A model generated the notes under the pieces. The model searched no databases. It saw only the letters and a program-made list of their open reading frames with translations, and had not been told where the DNA came from. Position numbers and translations under genes: made by a program. This document shows positions 30,197 to 60,590 of a DNA stretch of 64,000 nt, in pieces; the stretch's first letter is position 1, and each line of letters starts with the position of its first letter. This DNA comes from Narcine bancroftii (Eukaryota): positions 303,614,001 to 303,678,000 of the forward strand of contig NC_091471.1 in the NCBI RefSeq assembly GCF_036971445.1, in the 5' to 3' direction.

Positions 30197-30629
30197 AAAA
30201 AAAATGTATTATGTCAACCTGGAAATCAGAAGAGAGCCTGAGACTACAGCAATGGTACATAGAAATGAATAAATGTATTCCATTGGAAAAAATAACATAT
30301 AATTTAAGAAATAACATCACAGTACTTGAACAAATTTGGGAACCGTACGAGGAACACAACAGAGAAGTCCTACCGCGGACCTAAAATGACAGAAGGAGAA
30401 GAAGACGAAATGAACTGACCCAGTGTGTAAAAGTAATGACACAATTTTCTTGTTTATTTTCATTGTGTGATGACATTGTTTAATGGGTTTAATAGGTTGA
30501 ACATTGAGTGGGTGGGAAGGGGGGGTGAAGGAGAGAAAATGACTCTGTGTATATTCAAGAGGGAAATGTTTGTGTGTATTTTGGTTAGTATGATTCATAG
30601 TGTGAAAAATAAAAAAAATTAAAAAAAAA
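30197..30629 (+). mobile_element. L1 3' fragment with poly(A)
   Basis: KKCIMSTWKSEESL..EKITYNLRN..QIWEPY, aataaa and A tail. Homologous to 20743-21210. Confidence 0.9.
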
Positions 30630-33480
30630 GAATTCTAGAGATGAGGTGAGAGACACTGGCTTTTAAATGAAGGCAGCGTGTGACCGGTGTGGCATGAAAA
30701 GACCCTGTAAACTGAAATAAATGGCCTTCAGTGGAGAAACAACTCCAGAGGTTGAGGTATTACTTTCCATAAAGGAAGATGGTTGTGATTTTTAAGGCCA
30801 ATTCCTCAGCCCAACTCCTTCCTCAATGACTTTCAGCTCAAGGACATCAATGGGGATGCAGCAATATCAACATATGCTCACTTCCTGAGGAGAGTTCCAC
30901 ATCAAATTTTCCAAGAAACTAGAAGAACAAATGTGCACATCTTCTTGAATACGGTATTTTGCATTTCCTTGCCTGCAGGAAAAAGCTCAGGGATACATGT
31001 ATATCTGAAATCTGTACTTTGAACATTGAACCAATAACACTTAAAGGAGCAGTTTCAACGATGGCAAGAATTGGTTTGAGGAGGGAGCTCTTGGCGACCA
31101 TTTGGAATGAAATTTGGATGGATAATAAAATTGGTTTTGTCAGCAAAATGAATAAACAAAGCAAAATGAGGTGAGGAAGACTAACGAAGTTTTATGGATC
31201 ACCAGAAGCGTAATCTCCCTTCACAGCAGGTTAAGGATGCATTGACCCTATGGGCTGGCTGTAAGGACCACCTTTTTAGTGAAATAATTTAAATAAGAAG
31301 TCACCTAAGTCATGGATCCAGATGCTGATGAAGTGTCCTCCACACAATCTAATCTTGAAAATCAAAAACATGAAACAGAAAGTATACAGGGAGCCCAAAA
31401 TGGACTGAGACGCGGTTGTGGAGGATGGTGGCATTAGAGGAGATGATGGGCACTCTATTCACAGAAACTCTGAAGTGACTCTCTTTTTTTCTCTTCTTGG
31501 TAGGAGGAATGAACTCGGCATTCAGGGCACCCAAAAGCGAACATATCCTGTGTGATGATAAAGGAACCTTGAACTTTGATGAATGGAGACAATTCCTCAT
31601 ATCATCCTTTGCAGAGCCATCTGTGCAGATCAAAAGGTATCAACAAATAAACAAAAGTAACGAGGACAAAGAATTTCCTGTCACAGAGTCGTAGAGTCAT
31701 TGAGAGGTCCAGACCAATAAAGAAAAGCACCTCAGTCACTCCACTCTGTCCATCAACCATCCTATTTACATTAATCCTACACTAAACCTGTTTTTATTCT
31801 CTTCATATTCACATTGACTCCACCCCCCACTATTTCAAATCCTTCTAGTCACCAAAATAGTTGGGCAATTTATTGCAGTCGATTAACCTACCAAAGCACA
31901 AATCTTTGAGCCATGGGTGGGGGAAACCAAAACAGCCAGAGGAATCATGAGTCTTCTCTGGGTGGATATGCAAACTCCACTCCAACAGCACCAACATGAA
32001 GAGTGAATCCAGGTCTCTGGAGATGCGAGGTCTCTAGCTCTAATAGCTCTATGACTATACTGCCCACATTTGGCATGGCCTTGCATAGGCTCTCATTCTC
32101 CGAGGTGGCTGAGCACCAAATGATATATGTGGCTGCTGACTGAGTTTGCAGCTGTTAATGACGGAAGCAAAGGAAGAGATAAACCTCTTTAACCTTCTCC
32201 TCACCATTCCACATGTGGTTGATGTACCTAGCCATCATTGCATTGATGGAAGGGAGCTCTGCATGGTTGACATGGAATTAAAACCCTTCCTTCAAATGAA
32301 AACCATCTTCCACTTCCCTATGCTTCTCGACAATTGTGCCTAAATAGGTTAGCGAACAGTTCTTGCAGCTTAAAAACTAGCATCTACGGTATGTGCAATG
32401 ATCTTATTGAATAGTAGAGTAGATAGGAGGGGCTGAATGGCCAGTGCATCATTATTTCTAATCTGCAGTGCAGGAGATTGCAACATCTGGACTTCACAAG
32501 TTGGTTGACATCAACGTGCAGTCAAGAAATCCATGGCGCAGCAAGTTCAAGACGCCTGTTCATATGGGAGTGCAGCGAACTTGCTCATAGAGCTTGGCAT
32601 GGAAGTTGGCATTTCTATTACCAGTTCTGGCTCATTATCTATATGGCTGGAATATGGAGCAGTGATTACAAAAGGTATTTAATTGGCTAGAATAAGCTTC
32701 AAGACACCCTAGGGCTGTGAACGATATTTCTTTTTGTAGTGTTGATCTGCTTTCAATTTAAAGTTTTCTCTGTCAATTCCTTTTAAGATATATCTCTTGA
32801 GAGAGCTGCTGCCAATCAGTTATTAGGATGTTATTGTGAAGCTCATTTGCACAAACTCCTGTCCTGAAATGGTGTAACAACAAGTCAGCGAATTGAGAAC
32901 AAAACCTTTTCGTAACACTTTATAATGATGCTTCAGTCAATTTCAGTGTGACAGAATCTTTTCCTCTGTGAGATTCCTGTTTCCCATATGAAAACTTTTT
33001 TTGCAGTGTCTTTAATTAATCTCTAAGTTCTAGGTTTGTTCATCTTCCTTAATTATTGCTTGTTAATATCCAAATTAATGCATCAAAAATGAAGAGTGAC
33101 GTGATTGAAATATTAATGTGATTTGAAAAACCTGGAAGCTGATTGCCAAGGTCAGCTTTTGCAACATTCCTGAATATGCAAAATGCTTCATGGGTTACTC
33201 ACCTGTTCTATGCATGAGTGTCAGGTATCAGGAAAGGTGCGGACATCCCAGTGTTAAAGATTCATGTTGTTCTCTTGCAAATACCTCAACTTGTTTTCCC
33301 AGAAGCTCAGTGCTTTAGTTGAATGAAGCAACTTATAGGCCTTTGCCATAAAAAGGCAAATTCGCCATTTTGTTTTCGTTGAGCTACCTTTATGGACCAT
33401 AAAAAGAAACCCTAGTGAAAGTGCATATCAAGAAGTGTGAGCTACTCTGATTTGAATTTTTTGCCCTCGTTCAATCCTGG

Positions 33481-37620: not shown

Positions 37621-39728
37621 CTATGATGTCATCTGCAAATAAACTGATTTTATACTATTTCTCCTTTATTTTTATCCCTTTTATTTTATTTTCTATTCTT
37701 ATCAGTTCTGCCAAAGGTTTTATTGCTAAGGCGAACAATGAGGGGGATAGTGGACATCCCTGTCTAGTTGACCTACTTAATTTAAAGTGACTCGATACAT
37801 ATCCATTTACTGTTACCTTCACCAACGGTCCATTATACAATGCTTTTTATCCAATTTATATATTTTTCTGGTAGATTGAACTTCTGTAATAATTTAAATA
37901 AGTAGTTCCACTCTACTCTGTCAAAGGCTTTTACTGCGTCTAGAGCAACAGCCACTGTTGGTTTCTTATTTCCTTGAACTCCATGAATTAGATTAATAAG
38001 TTTGCAGACATTGCTGCTGTTCGTCTTTTCTTAATAAATCCAGTTTTATCTTGTTTTACTATTTTTGGTACAGAGTTGGCCAATCTGTTTGCTGATAATT
38101 TCGCTATTATCTTATAGTCTGAGTTAAGTTGAGATATTGGTCTATATGATGCTGGTGTTAATGGATCCTTCCCCGTCTTTGGTGTAACTGTAATTATTGC
38201 TGTCCTACATGAATCTGGCAAGTTTTGTGTTTCTTCTATTTGGTTCATTACTTCCAGGAGAGGAGGAATTAATAACTCTTCAAATGTTTTATAAAATTCT
38301 ATTGGAAATCTATCCTCTCTTGGTGTTTTATTGTTCAGCAGCTTTTTTAATATATCCTGTACTTCCTCTATTTCAAATGGTTTTATTAGTTTGTTTTATT
38401 CCTCTTCTTGCAATTTCGGCAGTTCAATTTTAGCTAAAAATTCCTCTATTTTATCATCTTTCCCCTCGTTCTCAATTTGATACAATTGTTCATAAAATTC
38501 CTTAAAATTTTCATTAATTTCTGTTGGATTATATGTAATTTGTTTGTCCTTTTGTCCTTTTTCCTTGATGCCAATACAGTTCTTTTAGCTTGTTCTATTT
38601 TAAGTTGCCAGGCTAATATTTTATGTGTTTTTTCTCCCAGTTCGTAATACTTTTGCATTGTTTTCATTATGTTCTTCTCCACTTTGTAAGTTTGTAATGT
38701 TTCTTGTTTAATTTTTTTGTCCGCCAATTCTCTCCTTTTCATTATATCATCCCCTTTTACTAATTCCTTTTCTGTACTTACTATCTCCCTTTCCAACTGC
38801 TCTATTTCCCGATTGTAGTCCTTCTTCGTCTTAGTCACATAACTTATTATCTGCCCTCTAATGAAGGCTTTCATTGCGTCCCATAATATAAATTTGTCTT
38901 TCACTGATCCTGTGTTTATTTCAAAAAATGTTTTAATTTGGTGTCCAATAAACTCCTTAAATTCATGTCTTTTAAGTAGCATGGAGTTTAACCTCCATCT
39001 ATATGTTCTTGGTGGGATGTCCTCCAGTTATTGCTAATAACAGGGGTTAATGATCTGATAGTAGTCTAGCTTTATACTCAGCTTTCCTAACTCTCACTTG
39101 ACTATGGGCTAACAACAAAAACATATCAATCCTTGAGTAAGTTTTGTGCCTACTCGAATAATATGAAAATTCCTTCTCTCTTGGGTGTTGCCTCCTCCAT
39201 ATATCCACAAGTTTCATTTCCTGCATTGATTTAACCATATATTTGGCTACTTTATTCTTTTTACTTGTCTTTTGTCCAGTTTTATCCAACATTGGGTCCA
39301 AATTAAGGTTAAAATCCTCTCCTATCAATATATTTCCTTGTGTGTCTGCAATCTTCAAAAAAACATCCTGCATAAACTTTTGATCCTCCTTGTTAGGTGC
39401 ATATATATTGAACAAATTCCAAAATTCTGAGTATATCTGACACTTTATCATTGCATACCTCCCTGTCGGATCTATTATTTCCTCCTCTATTTTGATTGGT
39501 ACATTTTTGTTAACTAGTATGGATACACCTCTAGCTTTTGAATTATAGGATGCTGCCGTTACGTGTCCTACCCAGTCTCTCTTTAGTTTGATCCACTTCA
39601 GTTAGATACGTTTCCTGCACAAATGGTATATATATTTTTTCCTTCTTCAATAAATTTAGTAGCCTCTTCCTTTTAATTTGGTTATGTATTCCATTAATGT
39701 TTATAGTCATATAGTTCAACTTTGCCAT
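37621..39728 (-). pseudogene. L1 ORF2p (APE endonuclease and partial RT), frameshifted
   Basis: TININGI..QET, NIYAPN, xDFN, SRIDMF, SDH, SYRPIS, QGCPLSPSLF and FADD. Confidence 0.92.
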
Positions 39729-40179
39729 CTTATATCTTGCTTACACCTCTTTTCCACCTCTTTGCCACCTCCATCCCCCTTTTCCCCATTTTCATCTCTT
39801 AGTTTTCTCTTATTACACCTAATGTACGACAACACATTTAAGACATAAAGTACCCTCACAGTTCCCACATCCACTAATACCTTAACCCCAAAAGTCCCCC
39901 CCACTCTGAGTTGCCCCATATCCCTTGCCAGGCAACCACAACTCCCCTTTTCATTTGGATTGTGATCTTGTTCGCAGCGACAACTGATTTTGCAGTGACA
40001 GTTATTCCCCCTCTACCCAACCCTCTCCAGAAAACACTTTTTTTAACACATAACAAAGCTCTCTCTCTTCTTTTTTCCCCCCTTACTCCCTTCCTTCTCT
40101 TCTCTTTTTCCTCTTTAGTACTTTACATATACATTGTTTTTATGTCTTTATATATACTTTATCGCCATTCTTCATTCTT

Positions 40180-41260
40180 GTCACATCTCTTCATCTCTTC
40201 TCCTGTCCTGCAAATGTTCTGTGAATTCTTGCGCTTCCTCTGGATCTGAGAACAGTCTGTTTTGCTCCCCTGGTATAAATATTTTAAGCACGGCTGGATG
40301 TCTTAACATGAATTTGTAACTTTTTTCCCTAAAATCAATTTCGCTGTATTAAACACCTTCCGCTTCTTTAAGAGTTCAAAACTTACATCTGGGTAAAAAA
40401 ATATTTTTAGACCCTTGTATTCCAATGGTTTATTATCTTCTCTAACTTTATTCCTTGCCCGTTCCAGTATATTTTCTCTGTCGTGTATCTCAAAAATTTT
40501 ACTAAGATGGATCTTGGTTTTTGATGTGTCTGTGGTTTCGGAGCTAATGCTCTGTGTGCCCTTTCTATTTTCATTTCTTCCTGCATTTCTGTCATTCCCA
40601 GGACCTTTGGGATCCACCCTTTTATAAATTCCTTCATGTCTGTGCCGCCTTCACCCTCCTTCAGGCCCACTATTTTTATGTTGTTTCGCCTACTATAATT
40701 TTCCAACATATCAATTTTCTGAGATAACTCTTGTGTCTCTTTAATTTTTTTGTCACTTTCTTCCAATTTTTCTCTTCATTTACTTCCATTCCTACAGTCA
40801 TTTCCCGCTCTTCCACATTCTCTACTCTTTTCCCTATTTCTGTCATTACCAGTTCTAACCTTTACATTTTATCTTCTGTTCTTTTCATTTTCATTTTAAT
40901 TACATTAAATTCTAATGATGACCATTCTTTTAGTGATCTCATTTGTTTTTCAAAAAATACTTTATCTATATTCCGTTCATTAGTTTTACATTTTATTTCT
41001 CTTTGTCCATCAGTTTTACCTTCTATTTCTCTGTGAAGATCTTGGTCTTCTTCTTCTGTGTCTGTACCTGTGTTTCAGTCTTCTTCTCTTCTTTGTGTCT
41101 GTGTCTCTTCTGCTTTTCCTGATGAGCTGCTTGTATCTCTTTGTCAGGCCTCTTGTTGCTGGGCCTCTTGTTGCTGGTCCTCCCCTCCTGGGCTGCTAGT
41201 CTGTTGTGGTTCCTGACATTGATCTTGTCGGGCATTCCATCTATCTCCCACGTCTGTTTC
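40180..41260 (-). pseudogene. L1 ORF1p (coiled coil and RRM), frameshifted
   Basis: LENYSRRNNIKIVGLKEG, IERAHRALAPKP..PRSILVKFLRY and IFFYPDVSFELLKKR. Confidence 0.88.
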
Positions 41261-41914
41261 ATCGCTTCCTCTTCTGCTGCCTTCCTCGTCCTCCAGCTGA
41301 GTGCCCTGGTGTCAGGCATCCCTCAGCTGTTCGCTCTGTGGCAGCCCCTTCTGCTGAGCCCCCTCCTGCTGGTGTCCTCTTTCTCCTTTGATTGTGCACT
41401 TTTGTTTGGCTCCGAGAGCTATTTTTGCAGTCCACCGGCTAGTGAATCGGGACTCCGCCGGGTAGAAACTGACCTCGAGGGTCGGGCGCTCCTCACCACC
41501 ACAGTTCCTTCTTGCAGGTAAGGCCTTCTTCTTTCTTCCCAGTTGTTTTTACTTTCTCCTTCTTGGAAGCCATCTTCTTTCTCTTCTCTGTATCTTTATC
41601 TTCTATTTCTTATATTTTATTTTTGTTATGCTTTGCTTTTTCCTAACTTTTTTCCTATTTTCCTGGAGAAGGCTGGTTTTCCTGACCGGCCTCTACTCCA
41701 TCACGTGACTCCTCCATTCTCAATGATTCTTAATCCCAGCCGTTTATGTGGGAATCCACTTTCAATGAAGCTATGTGACCTGCTGAGTTTCTCCAGTACT
41801 TTTGATTCTCTACAAATGTGTTTCATGTTACTCAAGTAACTAGTCCCAAATAATGACGTCAATGTTTTCTCGCACGCCTCAACAACCAATGCTCTCTAAT
41901 TTACCCTACCTCCT

Positions 41915-56144: not shown

Positions 56145-58365
56145 TTCTTCTTCTTTGGCTTGGCTTCGCGGACGAAGATTTATGGAGGGGTAATGTCCAC
56201 GTCAGCTGCAGGCTCGTTTGTGGCTGACAAGTCCGATGCGGGACAGGCAGACATGGTTGCAGCGGTTGCAAGGGAAAATTGGTGGGTTGGGGTTGGGTGT
56301 TGGGTTTTTCTTCCTTTGTCTTTTGTTAGTGAGGTGGGCTCTGCGGTCTTCTTCAAAGGAGGTTGCTGCCCGCTGAACTGTGAGGTGCCAAGATGCACGG
56401 TTTGAGGCGATATCAGCCCACTGGCGGTGGTCAATGTGGCAAGCACCAAGAGATTCCTTTTTTTTTAAATTTTTTATTTTTTACACAATAAACCATATTG
56501 ACTAAAATACATACAGACATTTTTCTCTTGAATATATAGTGTCATTTTCTCCCCTTTTTCCCCCTCCCTTCCCTCCCTCCTTCTCTCCCCTTCCCATTTA
56601 TTCAAAGTTTAATCTATAAGATACATTAAATCCATTAAACAATGTTGTCACTTAATAAAATAAACAAGAAATTTTTATCTTTTACTTTTATATACTGAGT
56701 CAGTTCATTTTGTTGTCTTCTCCTTCTGTCATTTTAGGTAGTGGAGGTTCATGGTAGGATTTCTCTATTGTATTTCATGTATGGTTCCCATATTTGTTCG
56801 AATATTGTGATGTTATTTCTTAAATTATATGTTATTTTTTATAATGGAATACATTTATTCATTTCTATATACCATTGTTGTATTCTCAAGTTGTCTACTA
56901 ATTTCCAGGTTGATATATTACATTTTTTTGCTACAGCTAGGGCTATCATAATAAATCTTTTCTGTGCTCCATCCAAATCGAGTCCAAATTCTTTATTTCT
57001 TATATTACTTAGAAGGAAGATCTCTGGGTTTTTTGGTATATTGCTTTTTGTGATTTTATTTAATATCTGGTTTAGATCTTCTCAAAATTTTCACATGTCC
57101 AAACTTCTCACATGTCCAAATTGCATGTATTGTTGTTCCCGTTTCCTTTTTACAGCAAAAACATCTGTCTGATACTGTTGGGTCCCATTTATTTAACTTT
57201 TGGGGTGTGATTACTGGACCCAATGTGTAACCAATTATATTGTATCACGCGTAACCTCGTGTTTATTGTATTTCTCATGGTTACGGAGCATAACTTCTCC
57301 CATGTTTCATTCTTTATCTTTATGTTTAGATCTTGTTCCCATTTTTGTTTAGGTTTACAGTTTGTTTCCTCGTTCTCCTTTTCTTGCAGTTTGATGTACA
57401 TGTTTGTTATAATTTTTTTAATTATCATTGTGTCTGTAATCACATATTCAAAATTGCTTCCTTCTGGTAACCTCAGACTGTTTCCCAATTTGTCCTTCAA
57501 GTAGGTATGCAAACCTTGTATCGTGAGTTATATTATATTTGTCCTTCATTTGTTCAAAAGATAATAATTTATTTCCCGAAAAACAATTTTCTATTCTTTT
57601 GATCCCTTTTCTCTCCCATTCTCTGAAGGAAAGGATATTTATTGTGAAAGGGATTAGTTGATTTTGTGTCAATATTAATTTTGGTCGTTGATAATTTATT
57701 TATTCCTTTCTATGTGAATCTTCTTCCAAATGTTGAGCAGATGGTGTAATACTGGTGAATTCCTACATTGCACCAATTTTTCATCCCACTTATAGAGTAT
57801 ATGCTCAGGTATCTTCTCCGCTATTTTATCTAGCTCTAATCTGGTCCAATCTGGTTTTTCCCTTGTTTGATAAAAATCTGATAGGTATCTTAATTGCGCT
57901 GCTCTATAATAATTAAAGTTTGGTAGTTGTAAGCCTCCTTGTTTGTACCATTCTGTTAATTTATCTAGTGCTATCCTCGGTTTCCCCCCTTTCCATAAAA
58001 ATTTCCTTATTATTTTCTTTAGCTCCTTGAAAAATTTCTGTTAGGTGAATTGGTAAAGATTGAAATAGGTATTGTATCCTCGGGAAGATGTTCATTTTAA
58101 TACAGTTTATCCTTCCTATCAGTGTTAGTGGTAAGTCTTTCCAGTGCTCTAAGTCATCTTGTAACTTTTTCATTAATGGCTGATAATTTAGTTTATATGA
58201 ATAATGCGGATTTCACAAAGTTTAAGGAAGAATCACCATTTAGATGGCAAACACAAGCAATTTGATACCTAGGTATACAACTAAATAATAATCTCGACCA
58301 AGAGATTTCTTTAGGCAGTCCTTGTACCTCTTCTTTGGTGCACCTCTGTCTCGGTGGCCAGTGGA
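56145..58365 (-). mobile_element. Young RTE 3' fragment split by an L1 (parts 56145-56460 and 58297-58365)
   Basis: The two parts are contiguous in the 48.7-kb copy ([22 protein letters not shown] | GACHIDHR). Confidence 0.92.
56461..58296 (-). mobile_element. 5'-truncated L1 with an inverted 100-bp 5' segment
   Basis: Poly(T) at 56457-56467 and ORF2 post-RT region (LPLTLIGRINCIKMNIFPRI). 16-bp TSD accaagagatt[c/t]cttt at 56445-56460 and 58297-58312. Confidence 0.93.
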
Positions 58366-58491
58366 TATAAAATGATGCACATCAGACCAAATGTGGCTGC
58401 ATGACAACGAGGTTCTATTTGTAGATGGAAAAAGAGTTGGATCATTCACTGCAGTTCAAGGCAAATGAAAGATGTAACCATGAATGCTAAT

Positions 58492-60590
58492 CGTTAGGGC
58501 TAAAATGACTTATAAATGTATTTTTTGCCAGTTTCTAGCAGCTAAAAGTTTCTAGCAGTCTGCAAAACATTGTTTCCTTTGAGTGTTTCTATAGTTATTG
58601 CCTTACAGTCAAGGTTAAAAAGCTGTGTTTTTGATCATATTACTGTGCATCTTGGCGCCTCATAGTTCGGCGGGCAGCAACCTCCTTTGAAGAAGACCGC
58701 ACTGACAAAAGACAAAGGAGGAAAAACCCAACACCCAACCCCAACCAACCAATTTTCCCCTGCAACCGCTGCAACCGTGTCTACCTGTCCCGCATCAGAC
58801 TTGTCAGCCACAAACGAGCCTGCAGCTGACGTGGACATTACCCCTCCATAAATCTTCGTCCGCGAAGCCAAGCCAAAGAAGAAGAGAGAGAAACAAAGTT
58901 TAGTTTTGAATTGGTTATAAAGCCAGTTTAGACAATTCTCTTTGATTGTGTACATTTGAATGTATTAATATCGTATTGTTCATTTATTAATTGTTTCAAG
59001 GATAAGTTTACTGTTTAGAGTGCAAATAAAGTGAAAAACTCAATGTTATTGGAAATGTCTTTTTCATTAACAAGTCAAATCAACCGGCTGTATGTTTTCA
59101 AGTGATTATAGAGGGAGATGGTCACAATAATTAAGTCAATAAAAAATCTGGATTATTGACTCATTAGTCAATAAAAGAGACTATTTAGTCAAAACAAATT
59201 TGGACTATTGACTAGTTAGTCAATAGAAGATGGATCTTCAAGCAAGACTAATTAAGTAAAAGAAATTTTGGACTATTGACTCATAAGGACAGATTGGAAG
59301 AAATAGAAAATTAGAAATCGAATTTGGAAGAATTCTGGATCAATTTGGCTCTGTTTAGAGCTGCTTGATAAGGAGAAACGAACACCAATCAAAACCATTG
59401 CTAGAAGCGGTAAACCTTCTAAGTTTATTACAGATTAGAGCACAGATGGGGGCATTGGATCTGCTTGTCCTACGAGAACTGTTTTGGGTTTGGAGAGATT
59501 GTTGTGCATGTTTGATATCTGAGTGTGATGAATGACACTATGGAGGAAAGAGCAGCTATGGCTACTAGGGAGCGATGTTTCAAGAAGATGAAAAAGGCAA
59601 AACTAAAGATGAATTTCAAAAATGGCAATTAGATGGGAAGGGAAACAAGGCAACTCTTCAAGCAAGACTGAGGGATGATATGAATAAGGTTTCAGCTGTG
59701 GGGATATGGATCCCACAGAATTACTGCCAGAAACATTAACGGAAACTAAGATTAGTCACGGGGCAGTGGCTAAAGCTTTACCACATGATGGTGGTGTGAA
59801 GGATGAACTACCTAAAATGGAGTCATTGTCAGAGATTAAAGCATTGTTTGACTTACAGGACCTAATAAGATTTCCTGATATTTCCAGCAGGAGGAGCTCT
59901 AGAGCAGGCGCCAGTTTCAAGTACTGAATCTTTGCATAGAAGAATTCAAATGGACGCGGCGGCTCTTAAAGTAGAAAAGAAAATGCATCAGTTTGAGTTG
60001 GACTTAGAAGATAAGAAAGCGGAGCTAAAAAAGCAAAAGAAGCAAATGGAACTGGACAAAAAAAAATTGCTGTTAATGAGGCCAGGTCAGAGGCACCAGA
60101 AAGTCCAGTGAACAAAGTAAATTATTGAAAACATCAAATTCTGATGAAGGACTTCAGGGAAGTAAACTATTAGATACCAGCATTAGAACCACAATATGGG
60201 CCTGGTCTTGGTACAAAGCTGAGCCAGTGTTAGAACCACAACGTGGGCCTCATCTTGAATTAGTCAGGTCTAGGTACAAAGCTGAGCCAATGCTAGGACA
60301 ACAAGAAGTGATTGGTCAAGGACTGAGCCAGTGCCTTAGCCTCAATATGGACTTGGTTTTGAAACAGGCAAAGGACGGGCTGATCCAGTGACGTGGCTCA
60401 GAGATCCCAAATTAATGAGTTTGATCCAAAGAGCTAGATTTGCCAGCATATGACTCCAAATCAAGGATTCAAAAGGACTAATGATTATTAGAGAAACATT
60501 TTGGTGGCAAATATAGGTGGAATGATCTAGTCACTATATAACATAAAACTGATTTTGTCAGTTTGGCTCTGAAAAAAATTCTGATCATTG
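58492..60590 (+). mobile_element. Probable BEL-related LTR (58492-59132) followed by a decayed leader and gag-like region
   Basis: Colinear similarity to the 52515-52920 LTR (cgttagggctaaaatgactt vs tgtaagggttaaaataactt; aataaagtgaaaaactcaatg vs aataaactgtggaaaaactcaaatg). E/K-rich coiled-coil-like coding remnants at 59700-60120. Confidence 0.55.
58642..58884 (+). mobile_element. Young RTE 3' fragment inserted in the LTR
   Basis: Near-identical to 49722-49973 apart from a 12-bp deletion. gaagaag tail. Confidence 0.92.

What the first reader, a model, noticed from the sequence alone, without database searches (positions are those of the whole stretch)
56445..58312. Twin-priming-type 5' inversion in a non-mammalian (probable chondrichthyan) L1
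Seen: the L1 reads on the minus strand from 58198 (YKLNYQPLMKKLQDDLEHW...) to its poly(A) at about 56460. In contrast, 58197-58296 reads on the PLUS strand as MNNADFTKFKEESPFRWQTQAI*YLGIQLNNNL, the RT-domain-7 YLG segment that normally lies immediately upstream of YKLNY. The two segments share 2 bp (AT, 58197-58198), and the whole insert is bounded by a 16-bp TSD inside an RTE. Established: TSD, then an inverted segment whose downstream end abuts the target, then sense segment, poly(A), TSD is the signature of twin priming, characterised mainly for mammalian L1. Inference: this L1 lineage also uses twin priming, so the mechanism may be older or more widespread than usually assumed.
Basis: partly seen in the sequence, partly recalled or inferred. 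Interest (0 to 1): 0.72.

Follow-up and report, generated by a model that had tools for sequence, protein, structure and literature searches.

The report
Front-flipped L1 copies common in ray
A dead copy of an L1 jumping gene in a ray-like fish has its front 100 letters flipped, as do about one in six sampled copies of its family, which likely means the "twin priming" copying route known from human L1 runs about as often in cartilaginous fish.

Summary
Confirmed. The insert is target-site duplication (TSD), 100-bp inverted segment, 1.74-kb sense segment, A-tail, TSD, inside an RTE copy. In 28 of 29 family copies the two segments are neighbours separated by 7 nt, which this copy lacks; they share 2 nt. 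The TSD is 16 bp with one mismatch; the target matches the L1 at 3 of the last 4 priming bases. It is not a one-off: 20 of 117 copies sampled by their 3' end are inverted (17%, 95% CI 11-25%; human germline 18%). Across 21 TSD-bounded inversions, priming-site microhomology sums to 41 nt against 15 by chance (0 of 20,000 simulations). The host is electric-ray-like and the element groups with fish L1s. Twin priming is inferred from these footprints, not shown. Reads could not confirm this locus. The scan noted single cases in three other genomes before; the rate is what this adds. No non-mammalian genomic report turned up in nine searches, but three key papers were not held. Verdict: known mechanism, new lineage.

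The parts
56152..56444 (-). 3' part of the host RTE copy (target)
   Evidence: 94% to another RTE copy of the window, reference positions 1064-1375 with the TSD
56445..56460 (.). TSD, copy at the tail side (one derived mismatch at 56456)
   Evidence: RTE halves overlap by 16 nt in the RTE reference (1064-1079)
56461..56482 (-). A-rich 3' end and short poly(A) tail of the L1
   Evidence: sequence; same A-rich end in full-length copies
56461..58198 (-). non-inverted L1 segment: ORF2 C-terminal part with stops and frameshifts, 3' UTR; family positions 4288-6035
   Evidence: 96% to family majority; translation
58197..58198 (.). 2-nt microhomology (AT) at the head-to-head inversion junction
58197..58296 (+). 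inverted L1 segment, 100 bp, family positions 4181-4280, includes the YLG codons; 7 nt missing between it and the sense segment
58297..58312 (.). TSD, copy at the 5' side; 58297-58300 is the inferred second priming end (3 of 4 bases match the L1)
58313..58365 (-). 5' part of the 5'-truncated host RTE copy
   Evidence: 96% to RTE reference positions 1011-1079 with the TSD

Best explanation
This is a dead, 5'-inverted copy of a fish-type LINE-1 in an electric-ray-like genome, likely made in one insertion event by twin priming, and about one in six sampled copies of the family has the same build. Shown: the geometry, the 7-nt loss, the 2-nt junction overlap, the TSD, the recurrence and the excess of priming-site microhomology. 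Inferred from the human model: the L1 endonuclease nicked the plus strand at the T-rich end of the target and that end primed cDNA on the poly(A) tail; a second nick 15-16 nt away freed the other strand, whose last 4 bases (3 matches and a terminal T-G wobble) paired with the same RNA just upstream of the first cDNA's end and primed a second cDNA of 100 nt; the RNA was removed, the two cDNAs were joined at AT, and fill-in made the TSD.
For: Adjacent segments in 28 of 29 copies. 20 of 117 3'-sampled copies inverted head-to-head; 15 of these 20 have a TSD of at least 11 bp, against 22 of 77 plainly truncated copies (Fisher p = 2e-4) and 14 of 19 full-length ones. In 21 TSD-bounded inversions the inverted piece starts flush with the TSD in 18 and with one odd base in 3; TSDs 11-17 bp, median 15; strict microhomology sums to 41 nt against a two-sided null mean of 14.9 (maximum 38 in 20,000 runs); 14 of 21 match at least 3 of the last 4 bases against 2.3 expected; same without the window copy. 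Matches fall off from the primer end: 16, 15, 12, 12, 9, 5, 5, 8 of 21. 20 of 26 have the two breakpoints within 40 nt, 7 overlapping, as in human (46% within 20 bp; PMC12016303). Rates match human: 17% v 18.4% germline (p = 0.8); 15 of 52 TSD-bounded v 30.9% (p = 0.9).
Against: The window copy has strict microhomology 0 and sits at a weaker target site than most of the family. 5 of 21 inversions have no strict microhomology and 2 match none of the last 4 bases. 5 of 20 sampled inversions lack a clear TSD. 6 of 26 have gaps of 0.3-3.8 kb, and 11 of 26 junctions carry 1-15 extra bases rather than overlap. No read-level confirmation of this locus. Sequence footprints cannot tell RNA-templated second priming from repair-driven capture of a cDNA fragment. 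The sample is the best-scoring 40 hits of each of four searches (545-2,348 candidates), not a genome-wide count.
Confidence: 0.88

Rival explanations
1. Same insertion event, different chemistry: one long cDNA was made, broken, and its 5' piece was attached backwards by host microhomology-mediated end joining, or the free target end primed DNA synthesis on a DNA template.
For: Short microhomologies and 1-15-nt junction insertions (11 of 26) are also marks of end joining (established knowledge); PMC4245944 finds that inversion depends on the host cell; large gaps in 6 of 26.
Against: Inverted copies keep full 15-17-bp TSDs far more often than truncated ones, which argues for an unprocessed overhang used early, as PMC4245944 proposes; 7 of 26 overlap in the L1, so part of the template was copied twice; terminal or near-terminal T-G pairs in 3 cases (window, L021, L010B) suit a DNA-RNA duplex, though the number is small. 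A split twin-priming intermediate is reported in human cells (10.1101/2024.12.14.628481).
Confidence: 0.08
2. An ordinary 5'-truncated L1 whose first 100 bp were inverted later by DNA repair.
For: The family does suffer later rearrangement: 11 of 98 non-inverted copies have internal deletions over 50 bp and 2 of 117 carry internal inverted pieces (L194, L124).
Against: One breakpoint would have to fall on the TSD border each time: it does in 21 of 21 within 1 base, while internal inversions, with thousands of possible positions, number 2; it does not explain the microhomology excess.
Confidence: 0.02
3. Assembly or read chimera at this locus.
For: No independent reads cover the locus.
Against: A chimera would not give a TSD that restores the host RTE, a private mismatch in one TSD copy, and 26 further cases on many contigs with the same junction rules.
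Confidence: 0.02

Closest known systems
5'-inverted (twin-primed) L1 insertions of human and chimpanzee (model of Ostertag and Kazazian 2001, not held; known here through passages of PMC2912911, PMC4245944 and section 8 of PMC12016303)
   Same: Head-to-head geometry, TSD peak near 15 bp, 2-5-nt priming microhomology, breakpoints mostly within tens of bases with gap or overlap, rate 17% of all and 29% of TSD-bounded copies, truncated copies poorer in long TSDs.
   Different: Host is a chondrichthyan; ORF2 RT region only 40-41% identical to mammalian L1 and far from them in the tree; target preference is TC|AAG rather than TT|AAAA; 71% of truncated copies have no long TSD; many junctions carry extra bases.
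Teleost L1 families (e.g. Kryptolebias marmoratus ORF2, P0005)
   Same: Closest named relatives, 45% identity; same branch with SH-aLRT 100 in a quick tree; zebrafish L1 TSDs of 13-15 bp are cited in PMC6007223.
   Different: No statement on 5' inversions in fish or lizard L1 was found in the passages searched of PMC5381506, PMC3381678, PMC5389967.
Zebrafish Nimb-2_DR insert with a 5' inversion in chicken DT40 cells (PMC4245944, passages)
   Same: A non-mammalian LINE in a non-mammalian cell can invert its 5' end.
   Different: One engineered insert of another clade; the same study saw none for human L1 in DT40 or for ZfL2-1. Here the events are natural, germline and frequent.

Membership tests
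Vertebrate LINE-1 | ORF1p of the L1 type (coiled coil, RRM, CTD) | tested here: met
   ORF1 piece of copy L171 matches human LINE-1 ORF1p structure 2ykp, E 2e-13; Pfam gave no ORF1 family
Vertebrate LINE-1 | ORF2 with APE endonuclease, RT and C-terminal zinc region | tested here: met
   Exo_endo_phos E 5e-12, RVT_1 E 2.5e-41, zf-RVT below cut-off; 1264-aa frame in the family majority
Vertebrate LINE-1 | About 6 kb full length, A-tail, TSD near 15 bp | tested here: met
   6.0-kb copies with 12-17-bp TSDs in 14 of 19
Vertebrate LINE-1 | RT groups with vertebrate L1 | tested here: met
   Nested among teleost L1 in a quick tree of 23 rows; no Tx1 rows were included, so Tx1 is excluded only by ORF1 and best hits
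Mammalian L1 lineage | Falls in the mammalian L1 clade | tested here: not met
   Five mammalian rows form their own branch (SH-aLRT 100, length 2.0) without it
Twin-primed 5'-inverted insertion | TSD, inverted segment, sense segment, poly(A), TSD, joined head to head | tested here: met
Twin-primed 5'-inverted insertion | Inverted segment lies just upstream of the sense segment in the RNA, small gap or overlap | tested here: met
   7-nt gap here; 20 of 26 within 40 nt
Twin-primed 5'-inverted insertion | Complementarity between TSD 3' end and the internal priming site | tested here: met
   Family level p < 5e-5; this copy 3 of 4 with terminal wobble, weak alone
Twin-primed 5'-inverted insertion | Microhomology at the inversion junction | tested here: met
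   2 nt here; 1-5 nt in 12 of 26, none in 1, extra bases in 11, later large insertions in 2; no null computed for this junction
Twin-primed 5'-inverted insertion | Insertion at an endonuclease consensus site | tested here: inconclusive
   A-rich TSD start with a T-rich nick strand, but it departs from the family's TC|AAG preference at the base before the nick
Twin-primed 5'-inverted insertion | Second strand primes reverse transcription on the same RNA | not testable with these tools
   needs a retrotransposition or in vitro assay

The most novel reading that the evidence does not exclude
Twin priming is an ancestral, rate-conserved property of jawed-vertebrate L1: it gives about one in six insertions (about 30% of TSD-bounded ones) in rays as in humans, despite 60% protein divergence and a different endonuclease target, so it follows from the 15-nt staggered cut itself and not from mammal-specific host factors, and this is not yet in print.
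Probability: 0.4. Interest if true: 0.6.

Novelty: new member of a known kind. Interest (0 to 1): 0.42.

Why it matters
The 5' joining step is the least understood part of L1 insertion. Cell work suggested that inversion needs both L1 and a mammalian cell (PMC4245944). A ray L1 that inverts at the human rate shows that neither the mammalian L1 lineage nor a mammalian host is required, and makes the question testable by counting across vertebrate genomes. It also matters for repeat annotation, since inverted copies are split in two. The single copy has no sign of function.

Tried and rejected
Read support: 8 runs listed, best share 0.39; four laid, none covered unique flank 58380-58499 and no listed piece spanned the junction; the 'opposite strands' joints 58198-58296 are ordinary uninverted copies: no verdict either way. 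No read-level test of inversions in relatives was obtained. RTE inversions claimed in earlier notes: a genome search with an RTE 3' end returned nothing (too common); among roughly 55 RTE segments in 1.08 Mb of fetched DNA none showed a head-to-head inversion, but the reference covered only the last 1.26 kb and pieces under about 25 nt would be missed: inconclusive. L010 first looked tail-to-tail; it is two nested copies, both inverted (only one could be scored). L030, L124 have later insertions at the junction. L194 (internal inverted insert in a full-length copy) was not counted as twin-primed. My first one-sided null (mean 8.6) understated chance and was replaced by a two-sided one (mean 14.9). 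First TSD finder gave spurious calls and crashed; replaced. Pfam did not recognise ORF1. The careful tree did not finish; the quick tree is cited. Ostertag and Kazazian 2001, Ichiyanagi and Okada 2008, Kojima and Okada 2009 were not held. No supplements were read.

Full report
Observation. The region was read and translated. A search of the own genome with 58197-58296 gave 40 scored matches of 1,008 candidates; 30 loci were returned, one being the window. In the 29 others the segment is always followed by GCCA, and in 28 by a 7-nt stretch and then the first bases of the window's sense segment (two of the 29, L018 and L019, are duplicates). So the window copy is inverted at adjacent family positions (4181-4280 inverted, 4288 onward sense), lacks 7 nt and shares AT at the junction. 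The flanks are two halves of one RTE copy that overlap by 16 nt; the two TSD copies differ at one base, the tail-side copy being the changed one.

Element and host. Full-length copies are 6.0 kb; the majority of 13 long copies has frames of 471 and 1264 codons. ORF1 matches human L1 ORF1p; ORF2 has endonuclease and RT domains. Best named relatives are teleost L1 (45%) ahead of mammalian L1 (40-41%), and a quick tree of 23 rows nests it among fish L1. A host acetylcholinesterase exon scores 1031 bits against PDB 1gqr/1acj (29 differences in 460 by my count of the printed alignment), 746 against 4qww, 654 and 647 against 1j06 and 4ey4. That these entries are Torpedo, snake, mouse and human enzymes is recalled, not printed by the tool. 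The host is therefore an electric-ray-like chondrichthyan.

How common. Four searches with 3'-end queries (40 scored each, of 2,348, 1,075, 847 and 545 candidates) gave 119 distinct copies; all were fetched and extended where needed. I dropped the window copy and one duplicate (L184, same TSD as L216), leaving 117: 19 reach the 5' end, 19 are inverted, 78 truncated, 1 has an internal inverted insert. One truncated copy (L227) proved to carry a 15-nt inversion with 5 of 6 priming matches, giving 20 of 117 (17%, CI 11-25%), or 15 of 117 if a TSD is required. Limits: copies close to the window copy and with intact 3' ends are favoured; very short inversions in copies without a TSD are missed; later deletions may have turned some inverted copies into apparent truncations. 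Seven more inverted copies came from the loci (six scored). Human values: 165 of 897 germline (PMC12016303) and 639 of 2,068 TSD-flanked (PMC2912911); neither differs from this sample, though methods differ.

Junction rules. Of 26 scored inversions 21 have a TSD of at least 11 bp (five set aside: L117 with 9 bp, L077, L187, L099, L124). The inverted piece begins at the TSD edge in all 21 within one base; one case (L045) was re-anchored by 2 nt at a homopolymer. Strict microhomology sums to 41 against 14.9 under a two-sided null, never reached in 20,000 runs; five have none. Gaps: 15 of 26 within 20 nt, 20 within 40, 7 overlaps, 6 over 300 nt. Inverted lengths 100-4,893 bp. Long TSDs are found in 15 of 20 inverted, 14 of 19 full-length and 22 of 77 truncated copies (false-call rate 4 of 400), the same direction as the human trend in PMC2912911 and PMC4245944, though later deletion may add to it. 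Identity to the majority is about 96% in all classes, so inverted copies are not an older set.

Mechanism. Twin priming explains flush borders, intact TSDs, priming microhomology that decays from the primer end, and near-adjacent breakpoints. The steps themselves are inferred from the human model. Repair-driven capture of a cDNA piece during the same event remains possible (0.08). Later inversion and misassembly are unlikely (0.02 each). Public contigs did not hold the locus.

What is known. Nine paper searches were answered; none listed a genomic survey of L1 5' inversions outside mammals. Seen: passages of PMC2912911, PMC4245944, PMC5389967, PMC4476161, PMC13174262, PMC11371274, PMC3747384, PMC5381506, PMC3381678, PMC6007223, 10.1101/2024.12.14.628481 (80), PMC2718515; passages and section 8 of PMC12016303. 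PMC4245944 reports inversions only for L1 in human cells plus one Nimb-2 insert in chicken cells. Three papers most likely to hold an earlier non-mammalian count were not held, so absence from print is unproven. Earlier AI notes of this scan record single L1 cases in three other genomes and RTE cases in this genome; they are leads, not support, and my RTE check was inconclusive.

Verdict. Real, family-wide, best explained by twin priming (0.88); a new member of a known kind; interest 0.42.

Noticed in passing
59 TSD-bounded insertions, e.g. L176, L180, L103, L067: Target sites favour C-x-T-C|A-A-G (TC|AAG in 22 of 59; C four bases before the nick in 39 of 59; the first A is fixed by my alignment), unlike human TT|AAAA: a different endonuclease preference.
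   Followed up: partly
77 truncated copies of the 3' sample: 55 of 77 have no TSD of 11 bp or more, against about a quarter of inverted and full-length copies; short TSDs, target deletions or later loss.
   Followed up: partly
L063, L067, L075, L217, L065, L192 and others: 11 of 98 non-inverted copies have internal deletions over 50 bp, six with 7-14 nt of overlap at the join.
   Followed up: partly
L201 (G000:C16:84643000-84651500): An inverted L1 copy inserted, in opposite direction, into another inverted L1 copy.
   Followed up: partly
L194:3902-3995: Full-length, TSD-bounded copy with a 94-bp inverted piece of a downstream position inserted internally.
   Followed up: no
L210, L021: Inverted segments that run back to the first bases of the element (4.9 and 2.3 kb), so the second cDNA can copy to the RNA's 5' end.
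   Followed up: no
L203:2066-6375: Copy that starts at the 5' end and stops at an internal A-rich stretch near family position 4330, with no clear TSD seen; possible early polyadenylation or later loss.
   Followed up: partly
L216 (C1) and L184 (C259); L018 and L019 (C8): Same insertion present twice: an unplaced duplicate contig and a likely segmental duplication.
   Followed up: no
window 37629-41715, 20746-21598, 30198-30632: Older L1 copies, 75-86% identical to the young family.
   Followed up: no
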